Shown here piece after piece: positions 3,894-17,275 of a DNA stretch of 64,000 nt (within the stretch, counting starts at the first letter, position 1; each line of letters begins with the position of its first letter). The notes beneath the pieces were generated by a model. It saw nothing but the letters and a program-made list of their open reading frames with translations, was not told where the DNA came from and made no database searches. The stretch is from positions 11,737 to 75,736 of the forward strand of contig NZ_CALTTX010000006.1 in NCBI RefSeq assembly GCF_943912325.1. Direction: 5' to 3'. Source of the DNA: an uncultured Microbacterium sp. Its GTDB lineage: Bacteria > Actinomycetota > Actinomycetes > Actinomycetales > Microbacteriaceae. Made by a program: the position numbers and the translations under genes.

Positions 3894-4676
3894 TCAGCGT
3901 CGCGTGGGGACGGCGCGCCATCCGGCGTCGTCGCGCGTCGCTTCGCCCTCGAGTTCGAGCAGGCCGAGCCGCTGTTCGACCGACGCGCGCGTCATGCCGG
4001 CGCGCCGCGCGATCTCCTCGACCGAGCGTGCCGCACGCGTGCTCAGGGCGTCGTGAACGCGCGAGGCGTCGTCGGTGCGCTCGGCGAGGCCCGGCGACGA
4101 TGCCGTAGCACCGGACGACTTCCGCACCGGTCCCGCGTCTGACGACTCCCCACCCACGAGTTCCGCGACGTCGTCGGGCGAGGTGATGCAGATCGCAGCT
4201 CCCTCGCGCAGCAATCGGTGGCACCCGAGCGATGCCGCCGACGTCACCGGTCCGGGCACCGCTCCCAGCGCCCGTCCGAGCGTCGCGGCGTGCGCCGCGG
4301 TGTTGAGCGACCCGCTGCGCGAGCCCGCCTCGACGACGACCGTCCCCGCGCTACTTGCGGCGATGAGCCGGTTTCGCGCCAAGAATCGCCATTTCGTCGG
4401 TGCCGATCCGGGCGGGACCTCAGAGTAGACCGCGCCGCTCGCGGCGATCCGCTCGATCATCGCCGCGTGTCCCGCGGGGTACGACCGGTCGGCGCCACCG
4501 GCCAAGAAGGCCACGGTCGGAGCGCCCGTGCCGAGGCTCGCGCGGTGTGCAGCTCCATCGATCCCATAAGCCGCACCCGACACCACGGTGAGACCGCGAC
4601 GCCCGGCACCCGCAGCGAGGTCTGCCGCAACATACTCGCCGTACGCGGTCGCCGCGCGCGCTCCCACGATCGCGAC
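3894..4676 (-). pseudogene. dprA: DprA (DNA processing protein A/Smf), C-terminal fragment. The gene is interrupted by an inserted element.
   Basis: The translation ..ALVAIVGARAATAYGEYVAADLAAGAGRRGLTVVSGAAYGIDGAAHRASL.. is the DprA Rossmann-fold core plus its C-terminal winged helix. The N-terminal ~150 aa are absent here and are found 12.5 kb away, at 17260..17697. Confidence 0.8.
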
Positions 4677-4690
4677 AAGCGCGCCCTTTT
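4651..4690. repeat. Left junction (attL-like) of the integrative element. The core tcgcgac lies at 4670-4676.
   Basis: A 7-bp identity with the right junction (17260-17266), with imperfectly matching flanks (cgctcc-cacga vs cgctccgcgaacac). Host dprA sequence resumes immediately to the left. Confidence 0.5.
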
Positions 4691-4850
4691 GCGTCTGATG
4701 CAGGTTCCTTCGGGGTTCCAGGTGTCGTTGATCGTACAGGGAGCCTCGTTGGTGCCATCTCCTGACTGGCGACGACTTGCGCTCGGTCCGTTGTTTCGCG
4801 TTAGATGCGTATTGTCTGCGTTTGATGGGAGTAAACGGGTGGTTTCAGGG

Positions 4851-5954
4851 ATGACGGCGCATGGTGTTGCGGGGCTGTATCTGGCCTCGGGCGTGTCGTT
4901 GTTGCGTGCCGAGGAGTCCGTGTTCGAGGCGATGGTGACGGGTTGGCGGGCACAGCAGATGGGCGGGCGCGGTCTGCGCGAGGACTACGTGACCGGGACG
5001 GTGCGCGCGGTCCGGCAGTTCCATACGCACGCGGGCACGTGGCCGTGGTTGTGGTCGGCGGGCCTGTTCGATGAGTGGATGATGGATCTGGTGTCGGTGC
5101 GGCAGTTGGCGCCGTCGACGATCCGCGGCTATCAGTTGGCGGTGCGGCAGTTCTGCGACTACCTCACCTCGGAGCACTACGGGTGGGTGGCAGAGTGCGA
5201 GCTGCGGTTCGGAACGCACCCGGTGCAGGTCTGCCACGACTGGAACACGACCCGGCATCTGCAGGACTACGAGGGCCGGCCGGGGCGGCGACCGTTGACG
5301 CGAGACGAGTTGCAGGCGCTGTTCGACCGCGCCGACGCGGAGGTCGAGCGGTGCCTGGAGAGTGGCCGCAAGGGCGCGTTGCCAGCGTATCGGGACGCGG
5401 TGCTGCTGCGAGTGGCGTATGCGTGGGGGTTGCGGGCGAACGAGGCGGTTCATCTGGATGTGACCGACTTCTACCGCAACGCGCACGCCCCGGAGTTCGG
5501 CGAGTTCGGGATGCTTCACGTCCGCCACGGAAAGTCGTCGCGGGGCGGCCCACCCAAGCGGCGATCAGTGGTGACGCTGCGGGACTGGGCGGTGGAGGCG
5601 GTGCAGGACTATCTGGAGAACGTCTGGCCGCTGATGCGGCCGGACGGTGAGCGGGCGCTGTGGTTCTCGGAGCGCGGCACCCGGCTGCGGACGAGGGAGC
5701 TGTCGGACCGGTTCGCCGCCTACCGGGACGACCTCGGGTTCGACCGGGTGCTGTCTCCGCACGCGCTGCGGCACAGCTACGTGACGCATCTGATCGAGGA
5801 GGGCGTGGATCCGGTGTTCGTGCAGCGGCAGGTCGGGCATCAGCACCAGTCCACGACGTCGATCTACACCGGGGTCAGCGGCGACTTCGCGAACAAGATG
5901 ATGCGGGATGCGTTGGAGCGGCTGCGGCCGCAGGAGGAAGGAGCGGGCCGATGA
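4851..5954 (+). CDS. Tyrosine-type site-specific integrase of the inserted element
   Basis: The start is MTAHGVAGLYL... It has a core-binding N-terminal domain. The catalytic box HALRHSYVTHLIEEGVDPVFVQRQVGHQHQSTTSIYTGV contains R-H-x-x-R...H...Y. It is the first gene inside the element, next to the left junction. Confidence 0.85.
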   Translation: MTAHGVAGLYLASGVSLLRAEESVFEAMVTGWRAQQMGGRGLREDYVTGTVRAVRQFHTHAGTWPWLWSAGLFDEWMMDLVSVRQLAPSTIRGYQLAVRQFCDYLTSEHYGWVAECELRFGTHPVQVCHDWNTTRHLQDYEGRPGRRPLTRDELQALFDRADAEVERCLESGRKGALPAYRDAVLLRVAYAWGLRANEAVHLDVTDFYRNAHAPEFGEFGMLHVRHGKSSRGGPPKRRSVVTLRDWAVEAVQDYLENVWPLMRPDGERALWFSERGTRLRTRELSDRFAAYRDDLGFDRVLSPHALRHSYVTHLIEEGVDPVFVQRQVGHQHQSTTSIYTGVSGDFANKMMRDALERLRPQEEGAGR

Positions 5955-6301
5955 AGGTGATCGGGTACGAGTGGCGGTTGCGGGAGGTGATGGCGGCGTC
6001 GGGGATCTTCGCGACGTCGAAGCTGGTGCCGTTGTTGCGTGAGCGCGGGATCGAGTTGTCGGCGAGCCAGATCTACCGGTTAGCGACGGAGAAGCCGGAA
6101 CGGCTGAACATGCACGTGCTGGTCGCGCTGATGGACATCTTCGAGTGCAGCGCGGACGACCTGGTCCGCAAGGTCGACCTGGGCGCCTCGGCGGCGGCGA
6201 CCGGCACCGACGGCGAGGACCGGTCCGCGGGCGGCGCGGCGACGTTGCGGGAGAAGGGCCTGCGTCCGCCGCGGGCGCGCGTGATCCCGACGGATGGGTG
6301 A
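5951..6301 (+). CDS. Small helix-turn-helix DNA-binding protein (XRE/excisionase-like accessory protein)
   Basis: Its ATG overlaps the integrase stop (ATGA), indicating coupling. The 116-aa product contains an HTH (LSASQIYRLATEKPERLNMHVLVALMDIFECSADDL). It lies between the two recombinase genes. Confidence 0.65.
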   Translation: MKVIGYEWRLREVMAASGIFATSKLVPLLRERGIELSASQIYRLATEKPERLNMHVLVALMDIFECSADDLVRKVDLGASAAATGTDGEDRSAGGAATLREKGLRPPRARVIPTDG

Positions 6302-8843
6302 CGAGGTCCGCGACGTCCTGGTCGCGGTCATCGCCGAGGTCGAGACGACCGTCACGCGAGATGTCATCCGTCAGATCGTGAACCGCACGATCGTCCGGGA
6401 ACCCGCAGAGCGGCGTCTGCTCGCACAGCTGACCAAGGATCCGGGGATGCTGGTGTCGGGGTCGACGCGGATCCCGCGATTGCTGGATCGCATCCTGCTC
6501 GATCTCGCCGACGCCGGCGGCAGCACGGTTCGCCCGCCGGGCTGCGCACGCTGCGGCCGGGTGGAGTTGCTGGTCTGCCGGGACGGTGAGGATCGGATCT
6601 GCGCGGCCTGCGGGCGGGCGCGCCTGGACGTGCTGATCGACTGCGTCGAATGCGAGCGGAGCGGGCAGCTGCGGCACGCGCAAGTGGGCGACCGGGCCTA
6701 CTGCCGCTCCTGCTGGCGGGCGCTGCAGGACGTCGCCGACGAGCGCCTGGACAGGTTCGTCGCCGAGCGGATTCCCGGCGGGACTCTCTACATGATGCTG
6801 ACCGCGACCGAGGGACTGAAGGCGGATCGCACGTTGCGACTCGCGCTGGAATGCGAGCTGTTCGGCGCCGACTGGATCGCCGACCCGCCGGCATCGTCGG
6901 TCCTGTTTGCCACGTTCTACGAGCGGCTGCGTGAGCTCGGCGCCCAGCTGCCAGCCCTGACCTGCGGGCACTGCGGCCGGGTCCGGAAGCTCCCGGACCG
7001 ACTCGAGGGGCGGATCTGCTGCGGCGCCTGCTACAAAGCCGCGCACCGGGCGGTCTGCGACGGATGCGGCAACACGGCCCATTTGGAGCTACGCCGCCCC
7101 AACGGTGACAGGCTCTGCCAGGCCTGCACGAACCAGCTGCCCGAATCCTCCGCGGAGTGCATCGGCTGCGGGAACCACCGGCTGATCGCGGTGCGCACTT
7201 CGGACGGGCCGATGTGTTCCGGCTGCCGGACCGCGCCCGGCACCGATGTCTGCACGGTGTGCGGCACCTCGGGTCCGTGTCGGTTCCCCGGCACCGAGAA
7301 GGCGATCTGCCTGACCTGCTACGCCGCCGCCCGGGTGGACATCTGTCACCGCTGCGGGCGAGAGCGGGAATGCCGGTTCGCGGGCACACCCAAGGCGATC
7401 TGCACGCCTTGCGCGCTCCCCCGCAAACCGTGCTCGGTCTGCGCCCGGGTGGTGCTCCCGATCCGGCACACCCCGGACGGGGAGCCGCTCTGCTGGAACT
7501 GCGCCCCGCACATCGTGGAGGCATGCATCGGCTGCGGCCGCGAAGCGCGGGTCAACGCACGCACTGACCAGGGGCCGCTCTGCCAGCGTTGCGCCCGGAC
7601 CAGCCCGCTGATGTTCCGCGATTGCCGTCGCTGCGGGACTCACGGACGGCTGCACCACCGCCGCTGGTGTGATCGCTGCTACGCCGACGACAAGATCCGC
7701 GAACTGCTCCCGGACGATGTCGTGGCAGCCGATCCGATGCTCGCGACACTGCGCGAGCGGTTCCTGGCCGCGGACGAGCGACGCACCCTGGACGCCTTCC
7801 GCCGCAACACGACGGTCGCGATCCTGCGGGAGGCCGTCTCCGGCACGGAGCCGCTGAGCCACGCGCTGCTGGACCGGCTGGGTACGCCTGGGTCGACTGC
7901 CCCCGTCCGGGCGCTGCTGGCCGAGTATGGCTTGCTCCCTGCGCGGGACGAGCAGTTGGTCCGGTTCGAGACCTGGTGCCAGGACCGGTCGGCGCAGATC
8001 CTCGACCCGGACCATCGCCGCCTGTTCGACCGATTCGTCCGCTGGCGTCATCTTCGGCAGCTGCGCGAGCAGGACCGCCAGACCGGGCGGCGGCAATCAG
8101 ACGGGCGACGGCAGGAACTGACCCAGGTCCTCGGCCTGCTGGGCTGGCTCACCGCACGCTCGGAATCGCTGACGATGCTCGACCAGGCGCGGCTGGATCT
8201 CTGGCTGCTCGAGGGCCCAAGGCTTCGCCGACGCGTCGCGGCGTTCCTGGAGTGGGCCGCCCGCGACGGCACCTGCCCCCGCCTGCGCGTCCCTTCCCTG
8301 ACCAGCACCCCCAACACGCCGACCGGCGCCAGCGTCGACGAACGCTGGGAACTGCTGGGCAGGGTGCTCAGCGCGCACGACGACGACCCCCGCACCCGAC
8401 TCGCGGGCGCACTGCTGCTGCTGTTCGGGATCCCGGTGGCCCGGCTGCATCTGCTGCGCGTGACCGACATCACCTCCACCGACACAGTCACGATCCGTCT
8501 CGGCGCGGACCCGCTGGAGCTCCCCGACGCGATCGGGCAGCTCGCGATCACCGCCCGTGAGCACCGCGACGCGCCACGCCTGCTCACCGACGCCGGAGAA
8601 TCCGATTGGCTGTTCCCGGGCCAGCATCACGGCGCTCCGCTCTCCCGCGACGCGCTCACCGACCGGCTGGCCAGGTTCGGCATCCGTGCCCGCCATGCCC
8701 GCGCCGGCGCGCTGGCCTCCCTCGCCCAGGAGCTGCCCGCCCCGGTGATCGCACGACTGACCGGCCTTCACGTGACCGCGGCCACCCGCTGGGCCGAAGC
8801 CGTCGTAGCCAGCAACGCCCGCTACAGCGCGCTCACACGCTGA
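6294..8843 (+). CDS. Large (849 aa) zinc-ribbon-repeat protein with a C-terminal tyrosine-recombinase-like domain
   Basis: Residues ~85-470 carry about ten tandem CxxCG...C(x2)C zinc-ribbon repeats (CARCGRV..CAACGRA; CVECERS..CRSCW; CGHCGRV..CGACY; CDGCGNT..CQACT; CIGCGNH..CSGCR; CTVCGTS..CLTCY; CHRCGRE..CTPCA; CSVCARV..CWNCA; CIGCGRE..CQRCA; CRRCGTH..CDRCY). The C-terminal ~330 aa resemble an integrase SAM-like domain plus a catalytic domain (ARLHLLRVTDI ... LFPGQHHGAPLS ... RHARAG ... GLHVTAATRW ... ARYSAL). Confidence 0.7.
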   Translation: MGDEVRDVLVAVIAEVETTVTRDVIRQIVNRTIVREPAERRLLAQLTKDPGMLVSGSTRIPRLLDRILLDLADAGGSTVRPPGCARCGRVELLVCRDGEDRICAACGRARLDVLIDCVECERSGQLRHAQVGDRAYCRSCWRALQDVADERLDRFVAERIPGGTLYMMLTATEGLKADRTLRLALECELFGADWIADPPASSVLFATFYERLRELGAQLPALTCGHCGRVRKLPDRLEGRICCGACYKAAHRAVCDGCGNTAHLELRRPNGDRLCQACTNQLPESSAECIGCGNHRLIAVRTSDGPMCSGCRTAPGTDVCTVCGTSGPCRFPGTEKAICLTCYAAARVDICHRCGRERECRFAGTPKAICTPCALPRKPCSVCARVVLPIRHTPDGEPLCWNCAPHIVEACIGCGREARVNARTDQGPLCQRCARTSPLMFRDCRRCGTHGRLHHRRWCDRCYADDKIRELLPDDVVAADPMLATLRERFLAADERRTLDAFRRNTTVAILREAVSGTEPLSHALLDRLGTPGSTAPVRALLAEYGLLPARDEQLVRFETWCQDRSAQILDPDHRRLFDRFVRWRHLRQLREQDRQTGRRQSDGRRQELTQVLGLLGWLTARSESLTMLDQARLDLWLLEGPRLRRRVAAFLEWAARDGTCPRLRVPSLTSTPNTPTGASVDERWELLGRVLSAHDDDPRTRLAGALLLLFGIPVARLHLLRVTDITSTDTVTIRLGADPLELPDAIGQLAITAREHRDAPRLLTDAGESDWLFPGQHHGAPLSRDALTDRLARFGIRARHARAGALASLAQELPAPVIARLTGLHVTAATRWAEAVVASNARYSALTR

Positions 8844-8869
8844 TCGGCGGCCACGGCAGACTCGACAGC

Positions 8870-9256
8870 ATGAACGATGAGCTTCCCCCGCAGATCCGGA
8901 CGATCGCCGACCGCATCGCGGACGGCTGGGCGGACACCATCGACATCGGCCCGGGATGGTTCGACCTTCTCGCCCGGCTGGACCAACAGCTCGCCGAGAT
9001 CTCGCCCGGCTACGTCATCGAGCAATGCAAGACGAAGTTCGGCACCCTCCGCTACTACGCGCGCCCCGAAGACGCCGACCACACCGACGCGGCCCGGTTC
9101 TCGGACATCATCCGGGATGCCGAGGACGAAAGCGCGACCGTCTGCGAGGACTGCGGCCAGCCCGCCCAGTAGGTCACGAGCCGCGGGTGGGTCTGGACCC
9201 TCTGCACCGCGCACGCACAGCAGCGGACGAACCCCTCCGAGATGTCGGCTGGCTGA
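8870..9256 (+). pseudogene. Hypothetical small protein interrupted by an in-frame TAG at 9170-9172. The translation continues into a second half zinc-knuckle.
   Basis: The ATG at 8870 follows the large recombinase stop. The 100-aa ORF ends ..VCEDCGQPAQ*. The same frame stays open for 28 more codons (VTSRGWVWTLCTAHAQQRTNPSEMSAG*), which would complete a C-x2-C...C-x2-H metal-binding pair. This suggests a nonsense mutation or read-through. Confidence 0.4.
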
Positions 9257-9262
9257 TCCATC

Positions 9263-10012
9263 ATGGATGACATGACCGATCTGGACGCGCTCGTCCCGCC
9301 CCACGAACCCGCCGAGGACACGCTCGCCTTCGCCGGCAAGGCCGCGCTCTCGCTGGTTCCCGTCGTCGGCCCCCTCGCCGCCGAGACGCTCGCGCACGCG
9401 CTGGAGACGAGGCAGGCCGAGCGACAGCACGAGTTCAACGTCGCGATCGCGCAGGCACTCACCGACGCGATCTCGCGGCTGGATGAGGCTGCGACGATCG
9501 AGGACATCGTCGGGTCGGACGAGTTCATCGCCGCGGTCACCCGGGCGCAACGCGCCGCGGCCGAGACCGCCAGCCACCACAAGCGACAGCGTCTGGCCGC
9601 CGCGGTCGCCAACGGCGGGTCCTGGGCGCCGTTCTCGGCCAGTGAGCGTGAGCAGTTCACCCGGCTGGTCGACGAGTTCGACGAGCTGCACGTCTGGCTG
9701 CTGCACTACTTCGCCGACCCCACCGGCTGGCTGCAGTCCCGAGACCTCTACGCCCAGCACGCGAACCTCATGATGGGCGGCATCGACGGGCCGCTGGGCA
9801 CCGCTCTCGGCGTCCCGCAGAATGTCTGGCGCGGACCCGTCGGTCAGGCCGCCTCGGACCTAGACCGGACAGGGCTTGCCTCGATTCCGCTGACCACGAT
9901 GATGACCCCGCAGGGCGTGTTCGCACCGCGCACGTCCGAGAAGGGACGACGATTCCTCGCGTTCATCAATGAACCCGACTCTCTGTCCGCGAATCCGCCG
10001 GCGTCCCTATGA
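9263..10012 (+). CDS. Hypothetical protein (249 aa), no recognisable domain
   Basis: An ORF with good GC3 bias. Its stop overlaps the start of the downstream small ORF (ATGA). It is element cargo of unknown function. Confidence 0.55.
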   Translation: MDDMTDLDALVPPHEPAEDTLAFAGKAALSLVPVVGPLAAETLAHALETRQAERQHEFNVAIAQALTDAISRLDEAATIEDIVGSDEFIAAVTRAQRAAAETASHHKRQRLAAAVANGGSWAPFSASEREQFTRLVDEFDELHVWLLHYFADPTGWLQSRDLYAQHANLMMGGIDGPLGTALGVPQNVWRGPVGQAASDLDRTGLASIPLTTMMTPQGVFAPRTSEKGRRFLAFINEPDSLSANPPASL

Positions 10013-10179
10013 TTCCGATCGACCCCGTCGACATCGACGGCTTGCCACCCGGCCGGAACTGCCCGGCTTGCGGTGAGCCGCTCGAGCCTGGTCACATCGA
10101 CGACTCGCTGCAGTTGGTCTGGCTCTGCCCCTCCCACGGCGTTGTCGACCGCACCATCGACCCGCTCCGAGGCCTGTGA
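10009..10179 (+). CDS. Small zinc-ribbon protein (56 aa)
   Basis: The product is MIPIDPVDIDGLPPGRNCPACGEPLEPGHIDDSLQLVWLCPSHGVVDRTIDPLRGL, with C-x2-C ...(18)... C-x2-H. Its start is coupled to the upstream ORF stop. It is too short for the ORF track. Confidence 0.4.
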   Translation: MIPIDPVDIDGLPPGRNCPACGEPLEPGHIDDSLQLVWLCPSHGVVDRTIDPLRGL

Positions 10180-10198
10180 CAGTCACACGCAAGGATGT

Positions 10199-10870
10199 CT
10201 AGTTGTACTGACCGGGGACATTAGTTGACGCGGGCGGAGGCGGTGGGAGCACTCGCGTCAAGGCTCCCGCATCACCAGCGACCTGCACACCTCGTGCGAT
10301 AGCAGCGGGTAGGGGCATCGCGCCTTGCAGGAGTGCCACCAGGATCGGCCCCGGCCCCGTGACCGTCGCCAGGGGGCTGGTGTCGCGTTGGCAGGGGTTC
10401 ACCGTGATGGTGCCGCTGGCTGCGGTGAGGTCAAAGCCGTCGACGAAGGTGCCGAACCGGATGACGACCGCGGGATCGTCCGGTCGGTGATCTTTGAGGA
10501 GGAATCTAGCTGGTTGGCTGAGCCAATGCATCTGGAAGATCGCGTCGCTCGGTGCATCCGGAACTGTCGGGGCACCCCATTTGAGAAGCTCACGCAGCAC
10601 TCCATCTAGGGCCCGGCCGCGGTCGGTGAGCTGGTATGTCGGTGTGCCCGAGGTGCCCGATGAGGGCTCGCGGACGACGACCCCGTTCGTCTCGAGGTCG
10701 CGCAGGCGCTGGGTGAGCAGGTTCGTCGCAATACTAGGCAGGCCCCGTTGCAATTCACCAAAGCGCAGTTCACCCTCGATCAGGAGCTCCCGCACGATCA
10801 GGAGAGTCCAGCGATCGCCGACGATATCCAGCGCGCGGGCGATTGAACAAAGCTGACCGTAGGACTTCAC
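10199..10870 (-). CDS. HxlR-family winged-helix transcriptional regulator with a C-terminal extension
   Basis: The N-terminus CSIARALDIVGDRWTLLIVRELLIEGELRFGELQRGLPSIATNLLTQRLRDLETNGVV is the HxlR DNA-binding signature. It is divergently oriented to the NTF2/TfoX pair. Confidence 0.8.
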   Translation of the reverse strand: MKSYGQLCSIARALDIVGDRWTLLIVRELLIEGELRFGELQRGLPSIATNLLTQRLRDLETNGVVVREPSSGTSGTPTYQLTDRGRALDGVLRELLKWGAPTVPDAPSDAIFQMHWLSQPARFLLKDHRPDDPAVVIRFGTFVDGFDLTAASGTITVNPCQRDTSPLATVTGPGPILVALLQGAMPLPAAIARGVQVAGDAGALTRVLPPPPPASTNVPGQYN

Positions 10871-10939
10871 GTGACCCTCTTGACTTTATCAAGTATCTGC
10901 TTGAAAGTATCAAGCACTATTCTCACATCAAGGAGAGTC

Positions 10940-11326
10940 ATGCCTGCCACCTTGTCTTCAGACGCGCCACAGGTCCTCAAGGTCTACTACCGGGTCCTCG
11001 AGTCCGGCATCGACGACTACCAGGACGGGGCGACCCTGCGATCCCTGCTGGGCGACCACCTCGACTTCACCGGCTCCCTCGCTGGTCATCTCCCCGATGC
11101 GACCGAGGGCTTCCTGGTCGGCGTAGCCGGCTTCATCGGGACGGTCCAGCAGATCGAGATCATCCACGACGTGCACAGTCCTCACGGGTCGGCCGTGCTC
11201 TACACCGCAACCATGCCCGGCGGCCCGATGACCTTCGCGGAGTTCTTCACGTTCGACGGCGGGCGCATCACGTCATTGAACCTGCACTACAGCGGTCCCG
11301 AGTACATCGAGAAGGGCGGGCGATGA
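10940..11326 (+). CDS. NTF2-like/SnoaL-like small protein
   Basis: The start MPATLSS.. follows an AGGAG RBS. The 128-aa product has a nuclear-transport-factor-2-like composition (..VLKVYYRVLESGIDDY..FDGGRITSLNLHYS). Its stop overlaps the next start. Confidence 0.55.
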   Translation: MPATLSSDAPQVLKVYYRVLESGIDDYQDGATLRSLLGDHLDFTGSLAGHLPDATEGFLVGVAGFIGTVQQIEIIHDVHSPHGSAVLYTATMPGGPMTFAEFFTFDGGRITSLNLHYSGPEYIEKGGR

Positions 11327-11655
11327 CGGACCAGGAGGACCTCATCGAGCGGGTACGTGAAGCGCTAAGTGACCGCAGCCCTCGTGAAGTGTCCATGTTC
11401 GGCGGCGTGTCCTTCATGATCGAGGGACGCATGGTCGTCGCCGCGCGCCGAGAGGGAGAACTCCTGCTGCGCATCGACCCCATGGCCGCGAAGGACCTTC
11501 TCGCCCGCCCCGGTGCCCACCCCGCGCTGATGGGAGCAGACCGCCCCATGGGCGACGGCTGGATCAGCATTGAACAGGCTGCCCTCCAGGGGGCCGGGCT
11601 CGACGCCTGGCTCGAACCCGCACTGTCCTTCCACACGGCGCAAGGCGCCCAATAG
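11323..11655 (+). CDS. TfoX/Sxy N-terminal domain protein
   Basis: The sequence ..REVSMFGGVSFMIEGRMVVAARREGELLLRIDP..PGAHPALMGADRPMGDGWISI matches the TfoX_N fold (MFGG..G.MF....d.L.lK). It is translationally coupled (ATGA) to the NTF2-like gene. Confidence 0.7.
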   Translation: MTDQEDLIERVREALSDRSPREVSMFGGVSFMIEGRMVVAARREGELLLRIDPMAAKDLLARPGAHPALMGADRPMGDGWISIEQAALQGAGLDAWLEPALSFHTAQGAQ

Positions 11656-11676
11656 ACCACTCTCCGTACCCGCATT

Positions 11677-11712
11677 CATCAGTGGCCGGCCGCAAACGTG
11701 GCCGGCCACTGA
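11677..11712 (+). terminator. Perfect GC-rich hairpin (cagtggccggcc / loop gcaaacgt / ggccggccactg) followed by ctgtttc
   Basis: A 12-bp perfect inverted repeat sits directly after the TfoX_N gene stop, followed by a short T-containing tract. It could alternatively belong to the IS481 left end. Confidence 0.45.
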
Positions 11713-12722
11713 TCTGTTTCAGGAGGCACTATGAGCCATCGCAATGCCGCGCTGACCCCACGCCATCGTCTGCGAGTCGCTCGACTCGTCATCGAGGACG
11801 GGTGGCCGATCAGCGAAGTCGCCGCCCGCTTCCAGGTGTCGTGGCCCACCGTGAAGCGGTGGGTCGATCGCTACGTTGCTGGTGAGCCGATGCAGGATCG
11901 GTCGTCGCGCCCGAGATCCTCGCCAAACAAGACGAGCACGAAGATAACGAAGCGGTGCGTGAGTCTACGAATGCGCCTGAGGGAAGGGCCCGTCCAACTC
12001 GCCTCCAGGCTCGGCATCGCCCCGTCCACGGTCCACCGCATCCTCAAAGGTGCCCGCATGAACCGGCTCTCCTACGTCGACCGTGCCACCGGCGAGACGA
12101 TCCGCCGGTACGAACACGACCATCCTGGCTCTCTTGTGCACGTCGACGTGAAGAAGCTCGGGAACATCCCCGACGGCGGTGGCTAGCGCTACGTCGGCCG
12201 GCTCCAAGGAGAACGAAACAGAGCTGCCACTCCTGGGAGGTCGAAGAACAAGTGGCGCAATCCGAAGCTCGGGTACGCGTTCGTGCACACGGTCATTGAC
12301 GATTATTCCCGCATCGCCTACACCGAGGTTCACGACGACGAGACCGCTGCCACTGCCATCGGGGTCCTGCACCGAGCATTCGAGTGGTTCGCCGACCGCG
12401 GCGTCACGATCGAGCGGGTCCTGTCCGACAATGGTGGCGCCTACCGATCCAACCTGTGGCGAGACACGTGCGAGGCGCTATCGATCGCTCCAAAGCGAAC
12501 ACGGCCGTACCGACCGCAGACCAACGGCAAAGTGGAGCGCTTCCACCGGACTATGGCCGACGGGTGGGCGTACGCACGGTGCTACACCAGCGAGCACGAA
12601 CGCCGCGACGCTCTCACCAACTGGCTCCACCACTACAACCAGCACAGGCCCCACACCGCCTGCGACAATCGACCACCCTTCTCACGATTGATCAACGTCT
12701 CCGATCAGTACATCTAGTTGCC
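11700..12722 (+). mobile_element. IS481-family insertion sequence (about 1.0 kb). Its transposase is inactivated.
   Basis: The IS481 transposase N-terminal HTH (11731..12186) and DDE domain (12283..12717) are in the same frame. They are separated only by a TAG at 12184-12186 in the motif GGG*RYVGR (expected GGGWR). The terminal sequences at ~11716-11735 and the reverse complement of ~12706-12722 are similar (aggcactatgag vs aggcaactagatg). Confidence 0.7.
11731..12717 (+). pseudogene. IS481-family DDE transposase with an in-frame amber stop
   Basis: Typical motifs include HVDVKKLGNIPDGGG, then after the TAG KWRNPKLGYAFVHTVIDDYSRIAYTE ... DNGGAYRS ... YRPQTNGKVERFHRT. Confidence 0.8.
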
Positions 12723-15047
12723 TCACGACGCCGAGAATGTCTTGACTAGCGACTCGAGGTCTTCGTGAGGGAGCGCGCGTAGGGCCTGGCCGCTGCCGAG
12801 CTCCCACATCGAGAAGCCGTCCTGGCCGTCGGGCGTGCCGTCGGTCTTCCACGTTCCCTCGGTCACGAACTTCACCTGGACCGTCGTGGAGACATCCTTG
12901 TGCGGCTGGATCGACAGCAGCTTGCGTCGGGCGTCGCCCTCGACGAGATGGTCGCCCTTCGTGTCGACACAGATGACCGTGTCGCCGGACCACACGAGGA
13001 AGTCCGGGAAGAACCAGATCGTCTGCCCGAGCGACACGAGCTGTATCCGGTAGCCGGTCTGCGAGCGGTTCCTCGCCCACGTGAGGCCCGTGTCGTCGAG
13101 AGCGCGGGCGAAGCGCCGCTCGAAGTCGTTGAGGCCGTCGTAGCCCTCGTGAAGCGCGTTCTTGAACGTTTCCATGGATCCGCGGCGTACGAGCGTGCTG
13201 CCGATCTCGTATGGCTTGGGCTTGAGCTGCTTCAGCACCGCGTGGCGGAGGTACTCGTCGACGGCCTCGGCAGCGTTGTCGGCGAGGCTCGCGTACGCCC
13301 GACTGCCGACGCCGACCTTCGCGTCGAACTTCTGGCCATCGGTATCCATGACTGTCAGCGCGAGCCGATAGCGCCGGGAGACCTCGCGCTGGAAAACCCA
13401 TCGAGCGTTGACACGGTTGGACTGCTCAAAGTCCTCCCAGTCGGAGTCGGTCGCGTCGCCCGCGCCGATCGCCTGGACGACGGTGCGTCGCCGACCTTGG
13501 CCGCGGGTGTTCACCGCGTCCTGGGTGTAGTCGAGAACCTTGTCGAGCACCTTCTGCACCGGCTTCACTGTCGCCTCGTTGTCGACACCAGTACGGGGTA
13601 TGTGGCGCGATTCCTTCGGCTCGAGATTCACCGGCGTCTCCGTGCCGGGCGGGGAGGTAAGGATCCGCACCTCAGGGGCATCGCCACCGAGGCCCCGCCG
13701 CACGTCTTCCACGATGTCTTTGAACACGTCGTTGCGGTCGACTCGCACGTAAAAGTGCGCAGTGTTGAGCCTGTCCGCCTCATAGTGCATCGCCCCTGGC
13801 TGGCGTAGCACGCGCCCGACCACCTGAGTGATCTGGACCGTCGACTCCATCGTCTTGTCGACGTACGCGAAATACACGGCCGGGTCGTCCCAGCCTTCCT
13901 GGAGCGTCTGATTGAAGATGATGTGCCGGTAGTCGCCTGCCACGAAGTCGTCGTAGTCGCTCTCGCCGCCGCTGAAGAGCACGAAGTCCGCCGGTAGCGG
14001 GAAGTCCTTGTCGGTCTTGAGATTCGCGTACACAGCGACCTCGTCGGCCGGGATCCCGCACTGCTCGGTGAGATACCGCCAGATCTGGATCGGCGGGGCC
14101 TGTCGCTGGTCGAAGAGTTGCTTCGGGTCGTCCGTGCGGCTCGCGTCGTCCGCGAGGATGTTCGTGTTGCAGACGTAGATCGCCTTCGGCGCAAAGCGGA
14201 GGCCCTCCGCCTGCGCGGCCGCCTCGGCTTCGCGCATGTCGGTGAGCATCTCGGAGACGGTCTCCTCCATCGGCGCGTTGAGCCCGTCGAGCGAAATCAT
14301 CCCTTTGACGAGGCCAGAGGCGACGACCGTCGAGGATTTCACCGACGTGATGAGCGCTTCATCTGTGTAGCCGGCTTGCAACCGCAGAGGCTGGATGACC
14401 TCCGTATCAAATTGCGCCGGGAACCGAAGCGTCGCGCTCGCGAGCAGGAACACACCGGGCTGCTGCTCGAGGAGGAGGTGCGTCTGCTGATCGGAGAGGT
14501 TCTGCGCTTCGTCGTAGACCACGACAAGCGGCCGGCGCTGGCCGTCAGCGGTCTCGCGAACCTTGAGGGCCTCCCACCGTGTGGTCTCGATGCCGTCGAT
14601 GTCGTTCGAGAAGATCTTCAGGTTGCTCTTCTCGCGATCCTTCTGGTTGAACGTGCCGACCGTGGCGAAGTAGAGCAGAGCCTCCTTCGCATCGGCGACG
14701 TCGGCCGGGTCGTACTCACTGAGCAGGCGCACCGTGATGCCCGGGAGGAGGTGACTGTACTTGCCGCCGTTCTCGAGGTTCGCGAAGCTCTGCTGGACGA
14801 CGACCTTGCCCTTGGACAGCCACAGGATTACGGGCGGGATCTCCGACATCGCCACGATCTCGCTGACGGCCTGCGCCAGGATTGCGGTCTTCCCGGATCC
14901 CGTGATCGAGCTCAACGCCTGGTAGAACGGCACCTCGCGCTTGCTGTCGCGGCGTCCCATGACGACAGGATCGGCGTCGTATTCGAAGTACCGGTCGGCC
15001 ATCTGCGAGGCCGCGTCCTGCTGGAACTGGAAGAGCTCGAGCGCCAT
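12723..15047 (-). CDS. res: Type III restriction enzyme Res subunit (SF2 helicase-like ATPase plus endonuclease)
   Basis: A Walker A motif (GSGKTA) and a DEAQN box are present. It has typical Type III Res length and organisation. It lies immediately downstream of mod, with the mod stop and res start 4 bp apart. Confidence 0.85.
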   Translation of the reverse strand: MALELFQFQQDAASQMADRYFEYDADPVVMGRRDSKREVPFYQALSSITGSGKTAILAQAVSEIVAMSEIPPVILWLSKGKVVVQQSFANLENGGKYSHLLPGITVRLLSEYDPADVADAKEALLYFATVGTFNQKDREKSNLKIFSNDIDGIETTRWEALKVRETADGQRRPLVVVYDEAQNLSDQQTHLLLEQQPGVFLLASATLRFPAQFDTEVIQPLRLQAGYTDEALITSVKSSTVVASGLVKGMISLDGLNAPMEETVSEMLTDMREAEAAAQAEGLRFAPKAIYVCNTNILADDASRTDDPKQLFDQRQAPPIQIWRYLTEQCGIPADEVAVYANLKTDKDFPLPADFVLFSGGESDYDDFVAGDYRHIIFNQTLQEGWDDPAVYFAYVDKTMESTVQITQVVGRVLRQPGAMHYEADRLNTAHFYVRVDRNDVFKDIVEDVRRGLGGDAPEVRILTSPPGTETPVNLEPKESRHIPRTGVDNEATVKPVQKVLDKVLDYTQDAVNTRGQGRRRTVVQAIGAGDATDSDWEDFEQSNRVNARWVFQREVSRRYRLALTVMDTDGQKFDAKVGVGSRAYASLADNAAEAVDEYLRHAVLKQLKPKPYEIGSTLVRRGSMETFKNALHEGYDGLNDFERRFARALDDTGLTWARNRSQTGYRIQLVSLGQTIWFFPDFLVWSGDTVICVDTKGDHLVEGDARRKLLSIQPHKDVSTTVQVKFVTEGTWKTDGTPDGQDGFSMWELGSGQALRALPHEDLESLVKTFSAS

Positions 15048-15049
15048 GA

Positions 15050-16993
15050 TCAGCCCTCCTCGGTGAACGATTCGGTGCGGACATCCAGCCCGAAGTCGGA
15101 CAGGATCCGGTCGGGGATCTGGTACCACGTCACGTCATCGGTGACGAGAAGATTGCGACGGCTGTACACGTGGTAGTGGTCCGCCAACCCGGCCGCATCG
15201 GCTTCCTCGGTGATCGTCTCGTACACATTCTCGGTGAGGTCGGGGCTGGAGTTCGGTCCCGACCAGACGAGGAAGATGCCCTCGTTCGCAGCGTTCTTCG
15301 CGACCAAGTACGCGTACGGCTCACTGTGACGCTCGACCGGAATGAGCACAGCCGCGCGACGGCTGCCGGTGCTCGAGTGCGAGGCGATGACAGTGTCGAC
15401 CATCTCGTCGCGCTCCATGAGCAGCAACGTCTTGGCGTCGACCTTCTTCTCAAGCAGCTTGAAAGTGAAGCCGCCTCCAAGCGGCTTTCCCTGCCCGTTC
15501 GCCCAATCACCGTTGACCACGCGAGCAAGACGATCGGCTGTGAGCGTCTTGGCGTAGGAGTCACCCCGTTCTGGGCGTCCCTGCTCGATGAGAATGAACC
15601 GCCGGTCGCTACCCGACATCTCGTTGAGCGCGAGGACAGCGTGGCCCGTCGTCCCCGACCCACCGAACGGGTCGAGGACAGCGCCACCATCCGGGGCCCA
15701 GAGCTGGATGATCTTCATCATGAGCTTGAGCGGCTTGACTGTCGTGAACCCGTGCCCCTTGCCGACGATCGCAGTGAGCTCGGCCGCGCCGTCGCTACTC
15801 CTGCCAGACTCCTCGAAGTCCCAGGACGTCGAGCCGAGTTCGTCGGGGAGATCCATCTCCTCATCGGCCCAATAGGTGATCGGAACCTTCCCCTTCCTGA
15901 TCCTCTCAAGGTATGTCTTCGTCCGAGGACGCCCCTGCCCGTCGCGGCCAAACCAGATGAAGGGCCACGCCGGCTCCGCCAACCGCGCCTCGGCCCGCTT
16001 GGCGACCTCGGGGCCGTAGCCGTCGACAAGCAGAAGTGCCTTGGCTTTGCCGTCGCCGATGGCCTGCTCGTGGTACAGGGAGCCCCACTGCTCGAGCCAC
16101 GCCTGGATGTTCCGCTTTGGGTGCCGCCACGCGCCCTCACCAGCGGGGTAATGCAGCTCACCTGTGAAAGGCGACTGGATGGCGTAGTCGCCGCTGTGGG
16201 CCCACGTTCGCGCCGTGAGGTTGCCCTCGCGCCACAATCCGATGGGGTCGGAGTCCGGGTTGCCGTAGCGTCGGTTGTCGGCGTCAGTACGGTCCATCGA
16301 TGCAGTCTTGGCGCGGGCGAGGTCGCGTGCGTAGACGAGCACATACTCCGTCGTAGCCGTCACGCCGCCCTTGTCCGAGCGTGGGGCGGCCGTCTTCTGC
16401 CAGTTGATGATTGCGAGCCGGTTCTCCTCGCCGAACAACTCGTCGAGCATCTGGCCGAGATGGAACAGCTCGCGGCTGTCGATGCAGATCGCGAGCACAC
16501 CAGACGGCTTCAGCATCGCTCGCATCATCTGCAGGCGCGGATACATGAACTTCATCCACTTGGTGTGCTTCGCGGGGTCGTCGCTGCCCACGAACTCGCC
16601 CATGTCGGGGTCGTTGGGGTCTGTGTCCCACTTGTCGTTGTAGCGGAAGTCGTCGCCCGTGTTGTACGGCGGATCGGTGAGGATCAGGTCGACGTGGCCC
16701 CGCTCGCGGTACAGGGAGGCCAGCGCCTGCAGGTTGTCGCCCTCAATCAGGAGGTTCCGCGCGCGGCCGTGCTCGTCGCCCGCGCTGTACTTCTGGATCG
16801 TCCGCTGGTTGCGCGGGCGCACTCGGCGGCCGAGCTGCCGGGCAAGGACCTTGCCGGGGAACGAGAGGTTCACGCCAGCTCCGGTCTTCTCGCGGATCAT
16901 CTCGATCAGTTGCTCGACGGGCAGATCTTCCAGAGCAAGCGAATCGTCCACGATGTGTCCTTTGGTTGGGGGCGGCGCAGGTCGTTCTGGCAT
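15050..16993 (-). CDS. mod: Type III restriction-modification methyltransferase Mod (N6-adenine)
   Basis: The DPPY catalytic motif (LILTDPPYNTGDDF) and the AdoMet-binding FGGSGTT motif (VLDPFGGSGTTGHAV) are present. It is the first gene of the mod-res operon. Confidence 0.85.
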   Translation of the reverse strand: MPERPAPPPTKGHIVDDSLALEDLPVEQLIEMIREKTGAGVNLSFPGKVLARQLGRRVRPRNQRTIQKYSAGDEHGRARNLLIEGDNLQALASLYRERGHVDLILTDPPYNTGDDFRYNDKWDTDPNDPDMGEFVGSDDPAKHTKWMKFMYPRLQMMRAMLKPSGVLAICIDSRELFHLGQMLDELFGEENRLAIINWQKTAAPRSDKGGVTATTEYVLVYARDLARAKTASMDRTDADNRRYGNPDSDPIGLWREGNLTARTWAHSGDYAIQSPFTGELHYPAGEGAWRHPKRNIQAWLEQWGSLYHEQAIGDGKAKALLLVDGYGPEVAKRAEARLAEPAWPFIWFGRDGQGRPRTKTYLERIRKGKVPITYWADEEMDLPDELGSTSWDFEESGRSSDGAAELTAIVGKGHGFTTVKPLKLMMKIIQLWAPDGGAVLDPFGGSGTTGHAVLALNEMSGSDRRFILIEQGRPERGDSYAKTLTADRLARVVNGDWANGQGKPLGGGFTFKLLEKKVDAKTLLLMERDEMVDTVIASHSSTGSRRAAVLIPVERHSEPYAYLVAKNAANEGIFLVWSGPNSSPDLTENVYETITEEADAAGLADHYHVYSRRNLLVTDDVTWYQIPDRILSDFGLDVRTESFTEEG

Positions 16994-17240
16994 GTTCCGC
17001 TCATGCCAACCACACGTCTACATCCTACGAGCGGGGGCAGACGTTGGTCGGATCCGAAGGGCGCCGGCAAGGCAGAACACACCTGCCAGCACGCAGCGAA
17101 GTCGGACTACTTCAAGCCCTCACGCGCCGAACCGATGACTGCGCAACCATACTCAACAGGCGCGGGCACGCCAGTGATCGAGATCAGCACCCGCATCGAC
17201 ACTCCCGCCGGCTAAAGCGCGAGGTTCAACTCCGCGACAT

Positions 17241-17275
17241 GCCAATCGCTCCGCGAACACTCGCGACCCCGCCCG
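17241..17275. repeat. Right junction (attR-like) of the integrative element. The core tcgcgac lies at 17260-17266.
   Basis: The same 7-bp core is found at 4670-4676, with imperfectly repeated flanks. The host dprA N-terminal coding sequence begins immediately to the right. Confidence 0.5.

What the first reader, a model, noticed from the sequence alone, without database searches (positions are those of the whole stretch)
6540..7700. Tandem array of ~10 CxxCG..CxxC zinc-ribbon units inside a single ORF
Within the large recombinase ORF, 6540-7700 encodes a protein-level periodic repeat of ~25-35 aa. It is visible directly in the translation and is unusually regular. Each unit could bind one Zn. 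Such arrays may act as DNA- or protein-binding scaffolds, for example for target-site recognition in dprA.

The DNA repeat units are diverged, not identical copies, which suggests an old, selected array rather than recent slippage.
Basis: seen in the sequence. Interest (0 to 1): 0.55.

Follow-up and report, generated by a model that had tools for sequence, protein, structure and literature searches.

The report
Zinc-finger array of a Tsy-type transposon
The ten cysteine-pair repeats are real: they form the zinc-finger arm of a recombinase-like protein in a three-gene mobile element that has inserted precisely into the competence gene dprA, and this is an expanded actinobacterial version of the recently described 'Tsy' transposons rather than a new kind of system.

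Summary
Confirmed. ORF 6294-8843 (849 aa) holds 20 CxxC motifs, forming ten CxxC-x11-16-CxxC units spaced 29-34 aa apart. Shuffled versions of the protein give about 2.5. The units lie in two blocks: two units, an 83-aa helical spacer, then eight. The DNA shows no repeat, but every cysteine pair is conserved in homologues down to 28% identity, so the array is old and selected.

The C-terminal 300 aa have a tyrosine-recombinase fold with an atypical active site. The gene is third in an operon after a canonical tyrosine recombinase and a small HTH protein. This trio sits at the left end of a 12.57-kb island (4677-17246). Strains with an intact dprA show that the island split the gene at ...SRS|VAIVG..., with no target duplication and no terminal inverted repeats.

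The trio is homologous to ZooTsy (Faure et al. 2023). The large protein matches ZooTsy TnsF at 99.8% probability, and YRec is 33% identical. ZooTsy TnsF, a multi-zinc-finger recombinase-like protein, selects the comM target.

This is therefore an actinobacterial Tsy variant with ten fingers instead of six, an added N-terminal region, dprA as target, and Trp where ZooTsy has its essential Tyr. What the fingers themselves do is inferred, not shown.

The parts
4677..17246 (+). Whole mobile element, a Tsy-type tyrosine-recombinase transposon or island of about 12.57 kb. One C at the junction is ambiguous.
   Evidence: Contigs encoding the identical ComM protein carry an intact 410-aa dprA (L022-L026). 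BLAST of that empty site places the breakpoints at window 4676/4677 and 17246/17247, with a 1-nt overlap. There are no terminal inverted repeats.
4677..4850 (+). Left end ('end1'): conserved non-coding DNA before the recombinase gene, starting AAGCGCGCCCTTTTGCGTCTGATGCAGG. It contains three direct copies of GCGTYWGATGS, at 4691, 4798 and 4818.
   Evidence: Alignment of 13 related element ends. The motif has exact matches only here in the 64-kb window (the motif was derived from these copies). ZooTsy end1 also starts with AAG and needs 135 bp.
4851..5954 (+). YRec: a canonical tyrosine recombinase. The start is inferred from the homologue alignment.
   Evidence: Pfam PF00589, E 3.9e-23. It is 33% identical to ZooTsy YRec, E 7e-47. 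It is present upstream in all 14 related loci.
5951..6301 (+). Small Cro/C1-type HTH protein. Its start overlaps the YRec stop, and its stop overlaps the next gene's start.
   Evidence: Pfam HTH_26, E 1.1e-9. Coordinates. The ZooTsy HTH protein belongs to the same Pfam family. It is conserved in all related loci.
6294..8843 (+). TnsF-like protein, 849 aa: zinc-finger arrays plus a tyrosine-recombinase-like C-terminal half.
   Evidence: No Pfam or NCBIfam hit. AlphaFold2 mean pLDDT 82.8. hhalign to ZooTsy TnsF gives probability 99.8%, E 4.6e-28, over 540 columns.
6294..6533 (+). N-terminal helical domain (aa 1-80), absent from ZooTsy TnsF.
   Evidence: Helices 2-73 in the model. The ZooTsy protein starts directly with a finger at residue 9.
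6543..6713 (+). Zinc-finger units 1-2 (aa 84-106 and 117-140).
   Evidence: The Cys are invariant in alignment A2.
6714..6962 (+). Helical spacer between the two finger blocks (aa 141-223).
   Evidence: Helices 138-214 in the model. It is missing, together with units 2-3, in homologues P0021-P0028.
6963..7679 (+). Zinc-finger units 3-10 (aa 224-246, 255-278, 289-311, 320-342, 351-373, 380-403, 411-433 and 444-462). This is the main array.
   Evidence: Units 4, 5, 7, 8, 9 and 10 align with the six units of ZooTsy TnsF. The block carries +17 of the protein's +18 net charge.
7683..8093 (+). Middle helical region (aa 464-600).
   Evidence: Helices 460-592 in the model. It aligns with ZooTsy TnsF.
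8094..8840 (+). Tyrosine-recombinase-like core-binding and catalytic domains (aa about 601-849). Conserved residues are R717 (67%), R803 (96%), W833 (99%) and Y844 (95%).
   Evidence: Foldseek matches to XerA, XerH, Cre and lambda Int. XerD profile hit. Residue conservation in 181 sequences. W833 aligns with ZooTsy Tyr584.
8870..9172 (+). Conserved 100-aa ORF downstream of the trio, function unknown. It is not a GIY-YIG nuclease.
   Evidence: Shared with L001-L004. No Pfam hit.
9263..10012 (+). Conserved 249-aa ORF, function unknown.
   Evidence: 92-100% identical in L001-L004. No Pfam hit.
10199..16993 (-). Variable cargo: an HxlR-type regulator (10199-10870), IS-like HTH/transposase remnants (11731-12691, + strand), and a Type III restriction-modification pair (Res-like 12723-15128, Mod 15050-16993).
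   Evidence: Pfam hits. Gene calls in L021. Related elements share only the left 5.5 kb and the right tip.
17210..17246 (+). Right end ('end2'): ...AAAGCGCGAGGTTCAACTCCGCGACATGCCAATC.
   Evidence: 100% identical in L001. The consensus recurs at the right ends of L002, L005, L008, L009 and L010. L002's version ends in ATCCCAGTC, the same 9-mer as ZooTsy end2.
3894..4676 (-). dprA, C-terminal fragment. It starts at the VAIVGARAATAYG motif.
   Evidence: Pfam DNA_processg_A, profile positions 51-210 of 212. Translation. Comparison with the empty site.
17247..17697 (-). dprA, N-terminal fragment. It ends ...GRGRECSRS and then reads into element DNA up to a stop codon.
   Evidence: Translation. Comparison with the empty site. 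ComM lies immediately upstream at 17694-19208.

Best explanation
The repeat is the multi-zinc-finger region of a TnsF-like protein. This is the large, recombinase-derived third component of a Tsy-type transposon, whose operon is YRec, small HTH protein, then TnsF-like.

By analogy with ZooTsy, which has been reconstituted experimentally, the expected mechanism is as follows. YRec excises the element as a circle. The TnsF-like protein binds a conserved stretch of the target gene next to the insertion point. Here that stretch is the DNA encoding the DprA motif VAIVGxRxxTxYG, which abuts the YRec-side end. The complex then integrates the circle at one fixed phosphodiester, with no target duplication.

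The ten Cys4 fingers most likely extend the DNA-contact or assembly surface of this target selector. They are basic, conserved and of variable copy number across the family.

Shown here: the array, the domain architecture, homology to Tsy, the exact insertion site, and recent horizontal transfer.
Inferred: zinc binding, DNA binding by the fingers, and the catalytic role of the large protein.
For: - Array: 20 CxxC in ten regular units, against 2.5 expected. The Cys are invariant in homologues. Family members have 3-11 units, with a mode of 9.
- Fold: the C-terminal half matches XerA, XerH, Cre and lambda Int and an XerD profile. The fingers match LIM/GATA-type fingers, as Faure et al. reported for TnsF.
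- Trio: the three-gene arrangement is conserved in all 14 genome loci and in the plasmid and metagenome loci examined.
- Homology to a verified ZooTsy copy. L029 matches the published end1 at 135/135 nt and has Tyr at residue 584. TnsF aligns at hhalign probability 99.8%, E 4.6e-28. YRec is 33% identical, E 7e-47. The HTH proteins share a Pfam family. The terminal sequence features are shared.
- Behaviour: empty sites exist in the same species. The junctions are precise, with no duplication and no inverted repeats. The same codon position is hit in seven hosts whose DprA is only about 60-67% identical to the window's. The element is 97.6% identical to L001's over about 6 kb, while the flanking host proteins are 54-60% identical.
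- A secondary site, in a YhcG nuclease gene, shares TCGCGnTCGTGGG with dprA on the same flank.
- Published experiments on ZooTsy: YRec, HTH and TnsF are all required, TnsF binds target dsDNA, and the attachment site lies within 40 bp on one side of the insertion point.
Against: - No experiment, here or in the papers read, assigns DNA recognition to the fingers rather than to the recombinase-like core-binding and catalytic domains.
- The array evolves at the same rate as the other domains. In elements with the same target and in elements with different targets there is no sign of a specificity-bearing module: non-Cys identity is 41% against 31-50% elsewhere in a dprA-targeting homologue, and 28-30% against 27-47% in elements next to umuD.
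- The positive charge of the array (+17) would be largely cancelled if each Zn(Cys)4 centre carries -2.
- The active site is atypical: no beta-hairpin Lys, no HxxR His, the first Arg is only 67% conserved, and Trp sits at the position of ZooTsy Tyr584. The two-catalytic-subunit mechanism of ZooTsy may therefore not carry over.
Confidence: 0.7

Rival explanations
1. The fingers are a protein-protein scaffold (LIM-like) and not a DNA reader. They hold YRec, the HTH protein or further copies of the large protein together in the synaptic complex, and the recombinase-like core-binding and catalytic domains do all the target recognition.
For: The best sequence and structure matches of the finger region are LIM domains of PINCH, LMO2 and CRP, which bind proteins. 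Faure et al. attribute DNA contacts of Tn6022 TnsF to the CB1/CB2 domains. The array shows no extra divergence between elements with different targets. A short 468-aa version with only about 3 fingers is widespread on plasmids and keeps the trio.
Against: GATA-type and ribosomal C4 fingers, which bind nucleic acids, also appear among the weak matches. Units 3-10 and the ZooTsy finger region are strongly basic, at +17 and +26. A LIM-type two-residue link between fingers is absent, since the linkers are 6-10 aa.
Confidence: 0.3
2. The large protein is a catalytically dead target selector, as Tn6022 TnsF is. YRec alone performs all strand exchanges. The conserved Arg, Trp and Tyr serve DNA binding or folding.
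For: W833 (99% conserved) occupies the position of ZooTsy Tyr584. The beta-hairpin Lys is deleted except in two distant homologues. The first Arg is replaced in a third of family representatives. There is a precedent: Tn6022 TnsF has an inactivated recombinase domain.
Against: Tyr844 is 95% conserved and Arg803 96% conserved across 181 diverse sequences. Tyr844 is kept even in the short plasmid clade, where position 833 is His (by eye). In ZooTsy the TnsF tyrosine is required. The recombinase-like fold is complete: about 300-350 aligned columns against XerH and Cre.
Confidence: 0.4
3. The protein belongs to the 'abnormally long' tyrosine recombinases of the actinobacterial Tn554-like elements described by Van Houdt et al. 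2012.
For: There is a superficial fit. That paper describes actinobacterial plasmids and chromosomes with a short recombinase next to a 611-828 aa one, which has an unexplained N-terminal extension of more than 400 aa. This element also shows Tn554-like behaviour: site-specific insertion, no repeats and no duplication.
Against: The listed example that was fetched is the Arthrobacter FB24 plasmid 1 long recombinase, 803 aa. It has 7 Cys, one CxxC, canonical HxxR/H/Y motifs and no significant similarity to this protein; the best BLASTP E-value is 0.09. None of that paper's plasmids appears among the best 60 plasmid hits.
Confidence: 0.03
4. The Cys4 units are rubredoxin-like iron or redox sensors that gate transposition, not nucleic-acid or protein binding modules.
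For: CxxCG...CxxC knuckles also occur in rubredoxins. Nothing here identifies the metal.
Against: No rubredoxin family hit appeared. The matches are to structural zinc fingers. The homologous TnsF acts as a DNA-binding target selector.
Confidence: 0.04

Closest known systems
Tsy transposon (ZooTsy, Zoogloea sp. LCSB751) and its TnsF-like protein; Faure et al. 2023, Mol Cell (PMC10293859)
   Same: The operon is the same: YRec, small HTH_26 protein, then a large protein with N-terminal CxxC..CxxC fingers and a C-terminal recombinase-like half. All three proteins are related in sequence. There are no inverted repeats. The end next to YRec is long and the other end is short, finishing in ...AT(C/G)CCA(A/G)TC. 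Both elements insert site-specifically into a conserved motif of a natural-transformation gene, and the split gene flanks the element.
   Different: - Ten fingers in two blocks instead of six, plus an 80-aa N-terminal helical domain and an 83-aa spacer; 849 aa against 607 aa.
- The target is dprA, not comM.
- The host phylum is Actinomycetota.
- No GIY-YIG nuclease was found among the scanned island ORFs.
- Trp is at the position of the essential Tyr584, with a conserved Tyr 11 residues later.
- Actinobacteria and dprA are not mentioned in that paper or in the parts of its supplement that are held.
TnsF of Tn6022-family Tn7-like transposons (AbaR-type islands in comM)
   Same: An N-terminal multi-zinc-finger region with LIM-like matches, followed by recombinase-derived domains. 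It acts as a target selector for a competence gene.
   Different: Tn6022 TnsF works with TniQ and TnsABC and lacks the catalytic chamber. No Tn7 genes were found among the island ORFs scanned here, and the recombinase fold is complete.
Tn554 (TnpA, TnpB, TnpC) and the actinobacterial Tn554-like elements of Van Houdt et al. 2012
   Same: There are three genes, including two recombinase-type proteins of unequal size. Insertion is orientation- and site-specific, into a DNA-metabolism gene, without duplication or terminal repeats (the Tn554 properties are from that paper and from general knowledge).
   Different: The long recombinase of that class has no finger array and no detectable similarity.
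LIM and GATA-type Cys4 zinc fingers
   Same: C-x2-C-x15-17-C-x2-C spacing, with a hairpin followed by a helix that starts at the second Cys pair. There are weak but consistent profile and fold matches.
   Different: No Pfam LIM or GATA hit. All ligands are Cys. The fingers are separated by 6-10 aa rather than fused in pairs.

Membership tests
Tsy-type tyrosine-recombinase transposon (Faure et al. 2023) | Operon of YRec, small HTH protein and TnsF-like protein, all in the same orientation. | tested here: met
   Genes at 4851-5954, 5951-6301 and 6294-8843, with overlapping stops and starts. The arrangement is conserved in all 14 loci.
Tsy-type tyrosine-recombinase transposon (Faure et al. 2023) | The TnsF-like protein has N-terminal multiple zinc fingers followed by recombinase-like CB and CAT domains. 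| tested here: met
   Ten Cys4 units. Foldseek matches to XerH, XerA and Cre at probability 1.0.
Tsy-type tyrosine-recombinase transposon (Faure et al. 2023) | Sequence homology to the components of the characterised ZooTsy element. | tested here: met
   L029 is a ZooTsy copy (135/135 nt of end1, Tyr584). TnsF: hhalign probability 99.8%, E 4.6e-28. YRec: E 7e-47. HTH: same Pfam family.
Tsy-type tyrosine-recombinase transposon (Faure et al. 2023) | Site-specific insertion that splits a conserved host gene, with no terminal inverted repeats. | tested here: met
   Empty and filled sites compared. Same position in seven hosts. Inverted-repeat score is at the level of shuffles.
Tsy-type tyrosine-recombinase transposon (Faure et al. 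2023) | The target is the Walker B region of comM. | tested here: not met
   The target is dprA, at ...SRS|VAIVG. Relatives lie next to umuD or in umuC-like genes, in a Tn3-family transposase gene and in a YhcG nuclease gene. The target gene is a property of ZooTsy rather than of the architecture.
Tsy-type tyrosine-recombinase transposon (Faure et al. 2023) | Catalytic tyrosine in the TnsF-like protein (Tyr584 in ZooTsy). | tested here: inconclusive
   The aligned position is Trp833, 99% conserved. A Tyr (844, 95% conserved) lies 11 residues downstream.
Tsy-type tyrosine-recombinase transposon (Faure et al. 2023) | Excision as a circular intermediate, and dependence on all three proteins. | not testable with these tools
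   Needs a transposition assay.
Tn6022-type TnsF (Tn7-like target selector) | Encoded in an operon with tniQ, next to tnsABC. | tested here: not met
   No such genes among the island ORFs scanned.
Actinobacterial Tn554-like long recombinases (Van Houdt et al. 2012) | Homology of the long recombinase, including its N-terminal extension. | tested here: not met
   The Arthrobacter FB24 plasmid 1 protein (803 aa) has 1 CxxC and a best BLASTP E-value of 0.09. Famint27 and Famint53 members were not fetched.
Canonical tyrosine recombinase (Pfam PF00589) | The R...K...HxxR...H/W...Y catalytic signature and a Pfam hit. | tested here: not met
   No Pfam hit. The Lys hairpin is shortened by 3 aa, the His is absent and the first Arg is 67% conserved. 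The fold is nevertheless that of the family.
LIM domain | Two fingers joined by a 2-residue link, with the C2HC/C4 ligand pattern. | tested here: not met
   Linkers are 6-10 aa and all ligands are Cys. No Pfam LIM hit. Only a profile match to PINCH, E 6.7e-5.

The most novel reading that the evidence does not exclude
Actinobacteria may harbour a very large, unstudied radiation of Tsy-like elements: more than 2,000 clusters at 50% identity, on chromosomes and on at least 248 plasmid records. In this reading an expandable zinc-finger array of 3-11 units sets the choice of target (dprA, umuC, a Tn3-family transposase gene and others). The recombinase-like domain would also have been rewired, with the canonical tyrosine replaced by tryptophan and a new conserved tyrosine three helical turns away. 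That would amount to natural zinc-finger-guided tyrosine recombination with a modular, possibly re-programmable reader.
Probability: 0.12. Interest if true: 0.8.

Novelty: new variant of a known kind. Interest (0 to 1): 0.45.

Why it matters
- It extends the Tsy/TnsF system, so far described from one reconstituted proteobacterial element and its comM-targeting relatives, to a large actinobacterial family that current databases leave unnamed. There is no Pfam or NCBIfam hit, and annotations read 'hypothetical protein' or 'XerD'.
- These elements also knock out natural-transformation or DNA-repair genes. Here the target is dprA, the neighbour of comM. They move defence cargo (a Type III restriction-modification system) between distantly related hosts.
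- The variable number of fingers and the variety of targets make the family a natural test set for asking what the fingers do.
- The Trp-for-Tyr change raises the question of whether the large subunit is still an enzyme.

Tried and rejected
- The word-indexed homologue search returned only 30 proteins, twice. That suggested a tiny family. The exhaustive HMMER search showed it is large, so the small number was a limit of the search.
- The search for related loci failed on the wide alignment A1 and worked on the narrower A3.
- A 7-nt match (AAGCGCG) and another (CGCGACA) near both junctions looked like crossover cores. The empty site shows that neither is one: only 1 nt is shared at the junction.
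- The Tn554-like class of Van Houdt et al. was considered and rejected, after three calls to locate the gene pair on Arthrobacter FB24 plasmid 1.
- Profile comparison with the window's own XerC and YRec gave only a short or no alignment. Residue equivalences around R800/R803 therefore remain uncertain.
- Per-domain identity was compared between elements with the same and with different targets, to look for a specificity signal in the array. None was found.
- No structure of the array alone was predicted.
- Literature searches for dprA-inserted elements and for zinc-finger tyrosine recombinases in Actinobacteria found nothing specific.
Full report
**Observation**

The window is high-GC actinobacterial DNA. 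ORF 6294-8843 (+) encodes 849 aa with 47 Cys and 20 CxxC motifs. The motifs pair into ten units of the form C-x2-C-x(11-16)-C-x2-C, joined by linkers of 6-10 aa. Start-to-start spacing is 29-34 aa. Eight units have Gly after the first pair. Shuffling the protein 10,000 times gave a mean of 2.5 CxxC and never more than 10.

The array is split. Units 1-2 cover aa 84-140. A helical segment of 83 aa follows. Units 3-10 cover aa 224-462, so the fingers run from nt 6543 to nt 7679.

At the DNA level there is no detectable repeat. Tandem Repeats Finder reports nothing. The units are 59% identical in nucleotides, against 56% for random pieces of the same ORF.

**What the protein is**

Pfam and NCBIfam give no hit for the whole protein. 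An AlphaFold2 model built on 30 homologues is locally confident (mean pLDDT 82.8). It shows, in order:
- an N-terminal helical domain;
- the two finger blocks with a helical spacer between them;
- a long helical region;
- a C-terminal half that Foldseek matches to XerA, XerH, Cre and lambda integrase over about 300-350 columns at probability 1.0.

A profile of the family also hits XerD (E 2.7e-4) and the LIM fingers of PINCH (E 6.7e-5) among solved structures. In the model each finger is a hairpin followed by a short helix that starts at the second Cys pair. That is closer to treble-clef/LIM/GATA fingers than to a textbook zinc ribbon.

The recombinase-like active site is unusual:
- The hairpin that normally carries the catalytic Lys is three residues shorter and has no Lys.
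- The His of HxxR is missing.
- The first Arg (R717) is kept in only 67% of 181 family sequences.
- R803 (96%), W833 (99%) and Y844 (95%) are conserved.

**Context**

The gene is the third in an operon with overlapping stop and start codons. The first gene is a canonical tyrosine recombinase (4851-5954; PF00589). The second is a small Cro/C1-type HTH protein (5951-6301). The third is the finger protein.

To the left lies the C-terminal part of dprA on the minus strand, beginning at its VAIVGARAATAYG motif. The N-terminal part of dprA lies 12.6 kb to the right, next to comM.

A look-up of the window's exact ComM protein found contigs of the same organism with an intact 410-aa dprA (L022-L026). 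Comparison with these fixes the element at 4677-17246. It was inserted between the codons ...SRS and VAIVG.... Only one ambiguous base is shared at the junction, so there is no target duplication. The two ends are not inverted repeats.

The element's genes are:
- the trio;
- two conserved ORFs of unknown function;
- variable cargo: an HxlR-type regulator, IS remnants and a Type III restriction-modification pair.

**Relatives**

A genome scan found the same trio in 14 species representatives of Microbacterium, Arthrobacter, Kocuria, Paeniglutamicibacter and several metagenome-assembled actinobacteria.

In six of the 14, as in the window, the truncated dprA sits directly beside the recombinase gene. 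The host-element boundary falls at the same codon, although the hosts' DprA proteins are only about 60-67% identical to the window's. A Pseudonocardia plasmid copy, with a finger protein only 42% identical, also lies next to a truncated dprA.

The copy in Microbacterium ginsengisoli is 97.6% identical in DNA over about 6 kb. The flanking XerC, DprA and ComM proteins are only 54-60% identical, so transfer was recent.

Other lineages sit elsewhere:
- next to a UmuD-like peptidase gene, or inside a Y-family polymerase gene (L011, L013, L014);
- inside a Tn3-family transposase gene, as a cargo-less trio (L030);
- in a YhcG nuclease gene, whose flank shares TCGCGnTCGTGGG with the dprA site.

The exhaustive profile search shows that the family is large. 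There are 2,076 clusters at 50% identity with E <= 1e-30. The best 150 carry 4-11 finger units, most often nine. Homologues occur on 248 actinobacterial plasmid records, including a short 468-aa form with about three fingers, always within the trio where it was examined.

**Identification**

The literature search led to Faure et al. 2023 (PMC10293859). [quoted passage not shown]

They also describe Tsy, a non-Tn7 transposon whose operon encodes YRec, a small HTH protein and a TnsF-like protein. It has no inverted repeats and sits in comM. In their reconstituted ZooTsy:
- circles form in a YRec-dependent manner;
- removing any of the three proteins impairs transposition;
- TnsF binds target dsDNA;
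- 135 bp of end1 and 20 bp of end2 suffice.

I recovered a ZooTsy copy from a metagenome using its published end1 sequence (L029). It matches at 135/135 nt, and its TnsF-like protein is 607 aa with Tyr at residue 584.

The comparison with the window gives:
- The window's family profile aligns to ZooTsy TnsF with hhalign probability 99.8%, E 4.6e-28, over 540 columns. Our units 4, 5, 7, 8, 9 and 10 pair with its six units.
- The small recombinases are 33% identical, E 7e-47.
- The HTH proteins share a Pfam family.
- The ends resemble each other. The left end starts AAG... in both. The right end finishes ...ATGCCAATC here...ATCCCAGTC in locus L002 and ...ATCCCAGTC in ZooTsy.

The window therefore holds a Tsy-family element.

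**Differences from the described system**

- This protein has ten fingers rather than six, plus an extra N-terminal helical domain, two extra fingers and a spacer.
- The target is dprA.
- No GIY-YIG nuclease was found.
- The residue aligned with ZooTsy's essential Tyr584 is an invariant Trp, with a conserved Tyr 11 residues later in the same predicted helix.
- Actinobacteria and dprA are not mentioned in that paper or in the parts of its supplement that are held. Only one other paper in the library discusses TnsF.
- The actinobacterial 'Tn554-like' long recombinases of Van Houdt et al. 2012 are a different family. Their Arthrobacter FB24 example has one CxxC and no similarity.

**Mechanism**

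The step-by-step model is given in the Best explanation section: YRec excises a circle, the finger protein binds the dprA stretch encoding VAIVGxRxxTxYG on the YRec-side flank, and the complex integrates at one fixed position. I hold it at about 0.7 overall. Family membership is close to certain. The specific job of the fingers is about even odds.

Evidence that the fingers contact DNA is indirect. The main block carries +17 of the protein's +18 net charge, although Zn(Cys)4 centres would offset much of that. Related fingers include DNA-binding GATA types. The whole protein's homologue binds target DNA.

Against a simple reading code, the array diverges no faster or slower than the other domains between elements with the same target or with different targets. 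Its closest structural relatives, LIM domains, bind proteins. Whether the large protein is still an enzyme is open.

**Verdict**

The finding is real and correctly located, and its interpretation points the right way. The thing itself belongs to a kind described in 2023. It is an expanded, retargeted and so far unannotated actinobacterial variant of that kind.

Noticed in passing
window 8790-8825 (aa 833 and 844 of ORF 6294-8843): The residue aligned with the essential Tyr584 of ZooTsy TnsF is Trp (99% conserved in 181 family sequences). A Tyr 11 residues downstream is 95% conserved. In the short plasmid form (L019) the Trp position is His, while the downstream Tyr is kept.
   Followed up: partly
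window 4691-4701, 4798-4808, 4818-4828: There are three direct copies of GCGTYWGATGS in the 174-nt left end, with no other exact match in the 64-kb window. In L013 the two copies nearest the recombinase gene form a perfect 13-bp palindrome with a 7-bp spacer (CCCGTCTAATGCA-GGAATAG-TGCATTAGACGGG). ZooTsy end1 carries TGCAGGAAT and GCATTAGA at the equivalent place. These may be operator or recombinase binding sites.
   Followed up: partly
window 17694-19208 and 3894-4676 / 17247-17697: The target dprA lies directly next to comM, which is the target of the proteobacterial Tsy and Tn6022 elements. Both genes serve natural transformation, so different branches of the family disable the same pathway.
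   Followed up: no
L015 (Pseudonocardia autotrophica plasmid pPA12743CP) 1-8475: Next to a truncated dprA on a 289-kb plasmid there is one recombinase gene. A complete second trio (recombinase, HTH, 818-aa finger protein) follows, and only then the HTH and 847-aa finger protein that would complete the first trio. This looks like one cargo-less element inserted inside another.
   Followed up: partly
L030 3572-7331 (contig of P0021): A trio with no cargo sits between a 698-aa and a 257-aa fragment of a Tn3-family transposase (DDE_Tnp_Tn3). The element appears to have targeted another transposon's transposase gene.
   Followed up: no
L011 3739-4578 and 10001-11701 (Arthrobacter sp. H35-D1): The finger-protein gene is itself interrupted within the array, at the equivalent of aa 282, by about 5.4 kb that contains large minus-strand ORFs. 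The inserted DNA was not identified.
   Followed up: no
window 4248-10205 versus L001 (Microbacterium ginsengisoli DSM 18659): The left 6 kb of the element is 97.6% identical in DNA between two hosts whose flanking XerC, DprA and ComM proteins are only 54-60% identical. The cargo differs. Only a 129-nt piece of the Res gene is shared.
   Followed up: yes
window 12723-16993 (-): The island's cargo includes a Type III restriction-modification pair (Res-like helicase, N6/N4 methyltransferase), plus IS-type HTH/transposase remnants at 11731-12691.
   Followed up: partly
L010 8392-15788: This copy of the element has an ISL3-family transposase gene abutting its left end instead of dprA. Its finger-protein gene appears broken, with two separate matches and a 502-aa ORF.
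   Followed up: no
L021, L027, L028 versus L022-L026: Metagenome contigs (L021 and L027 from a human-skin sample) carry the identical ComM protein, some with the island and some with an intact dprA. The insertion is therefore polymorphic in natural populations of this organism.
   Followed up: partly
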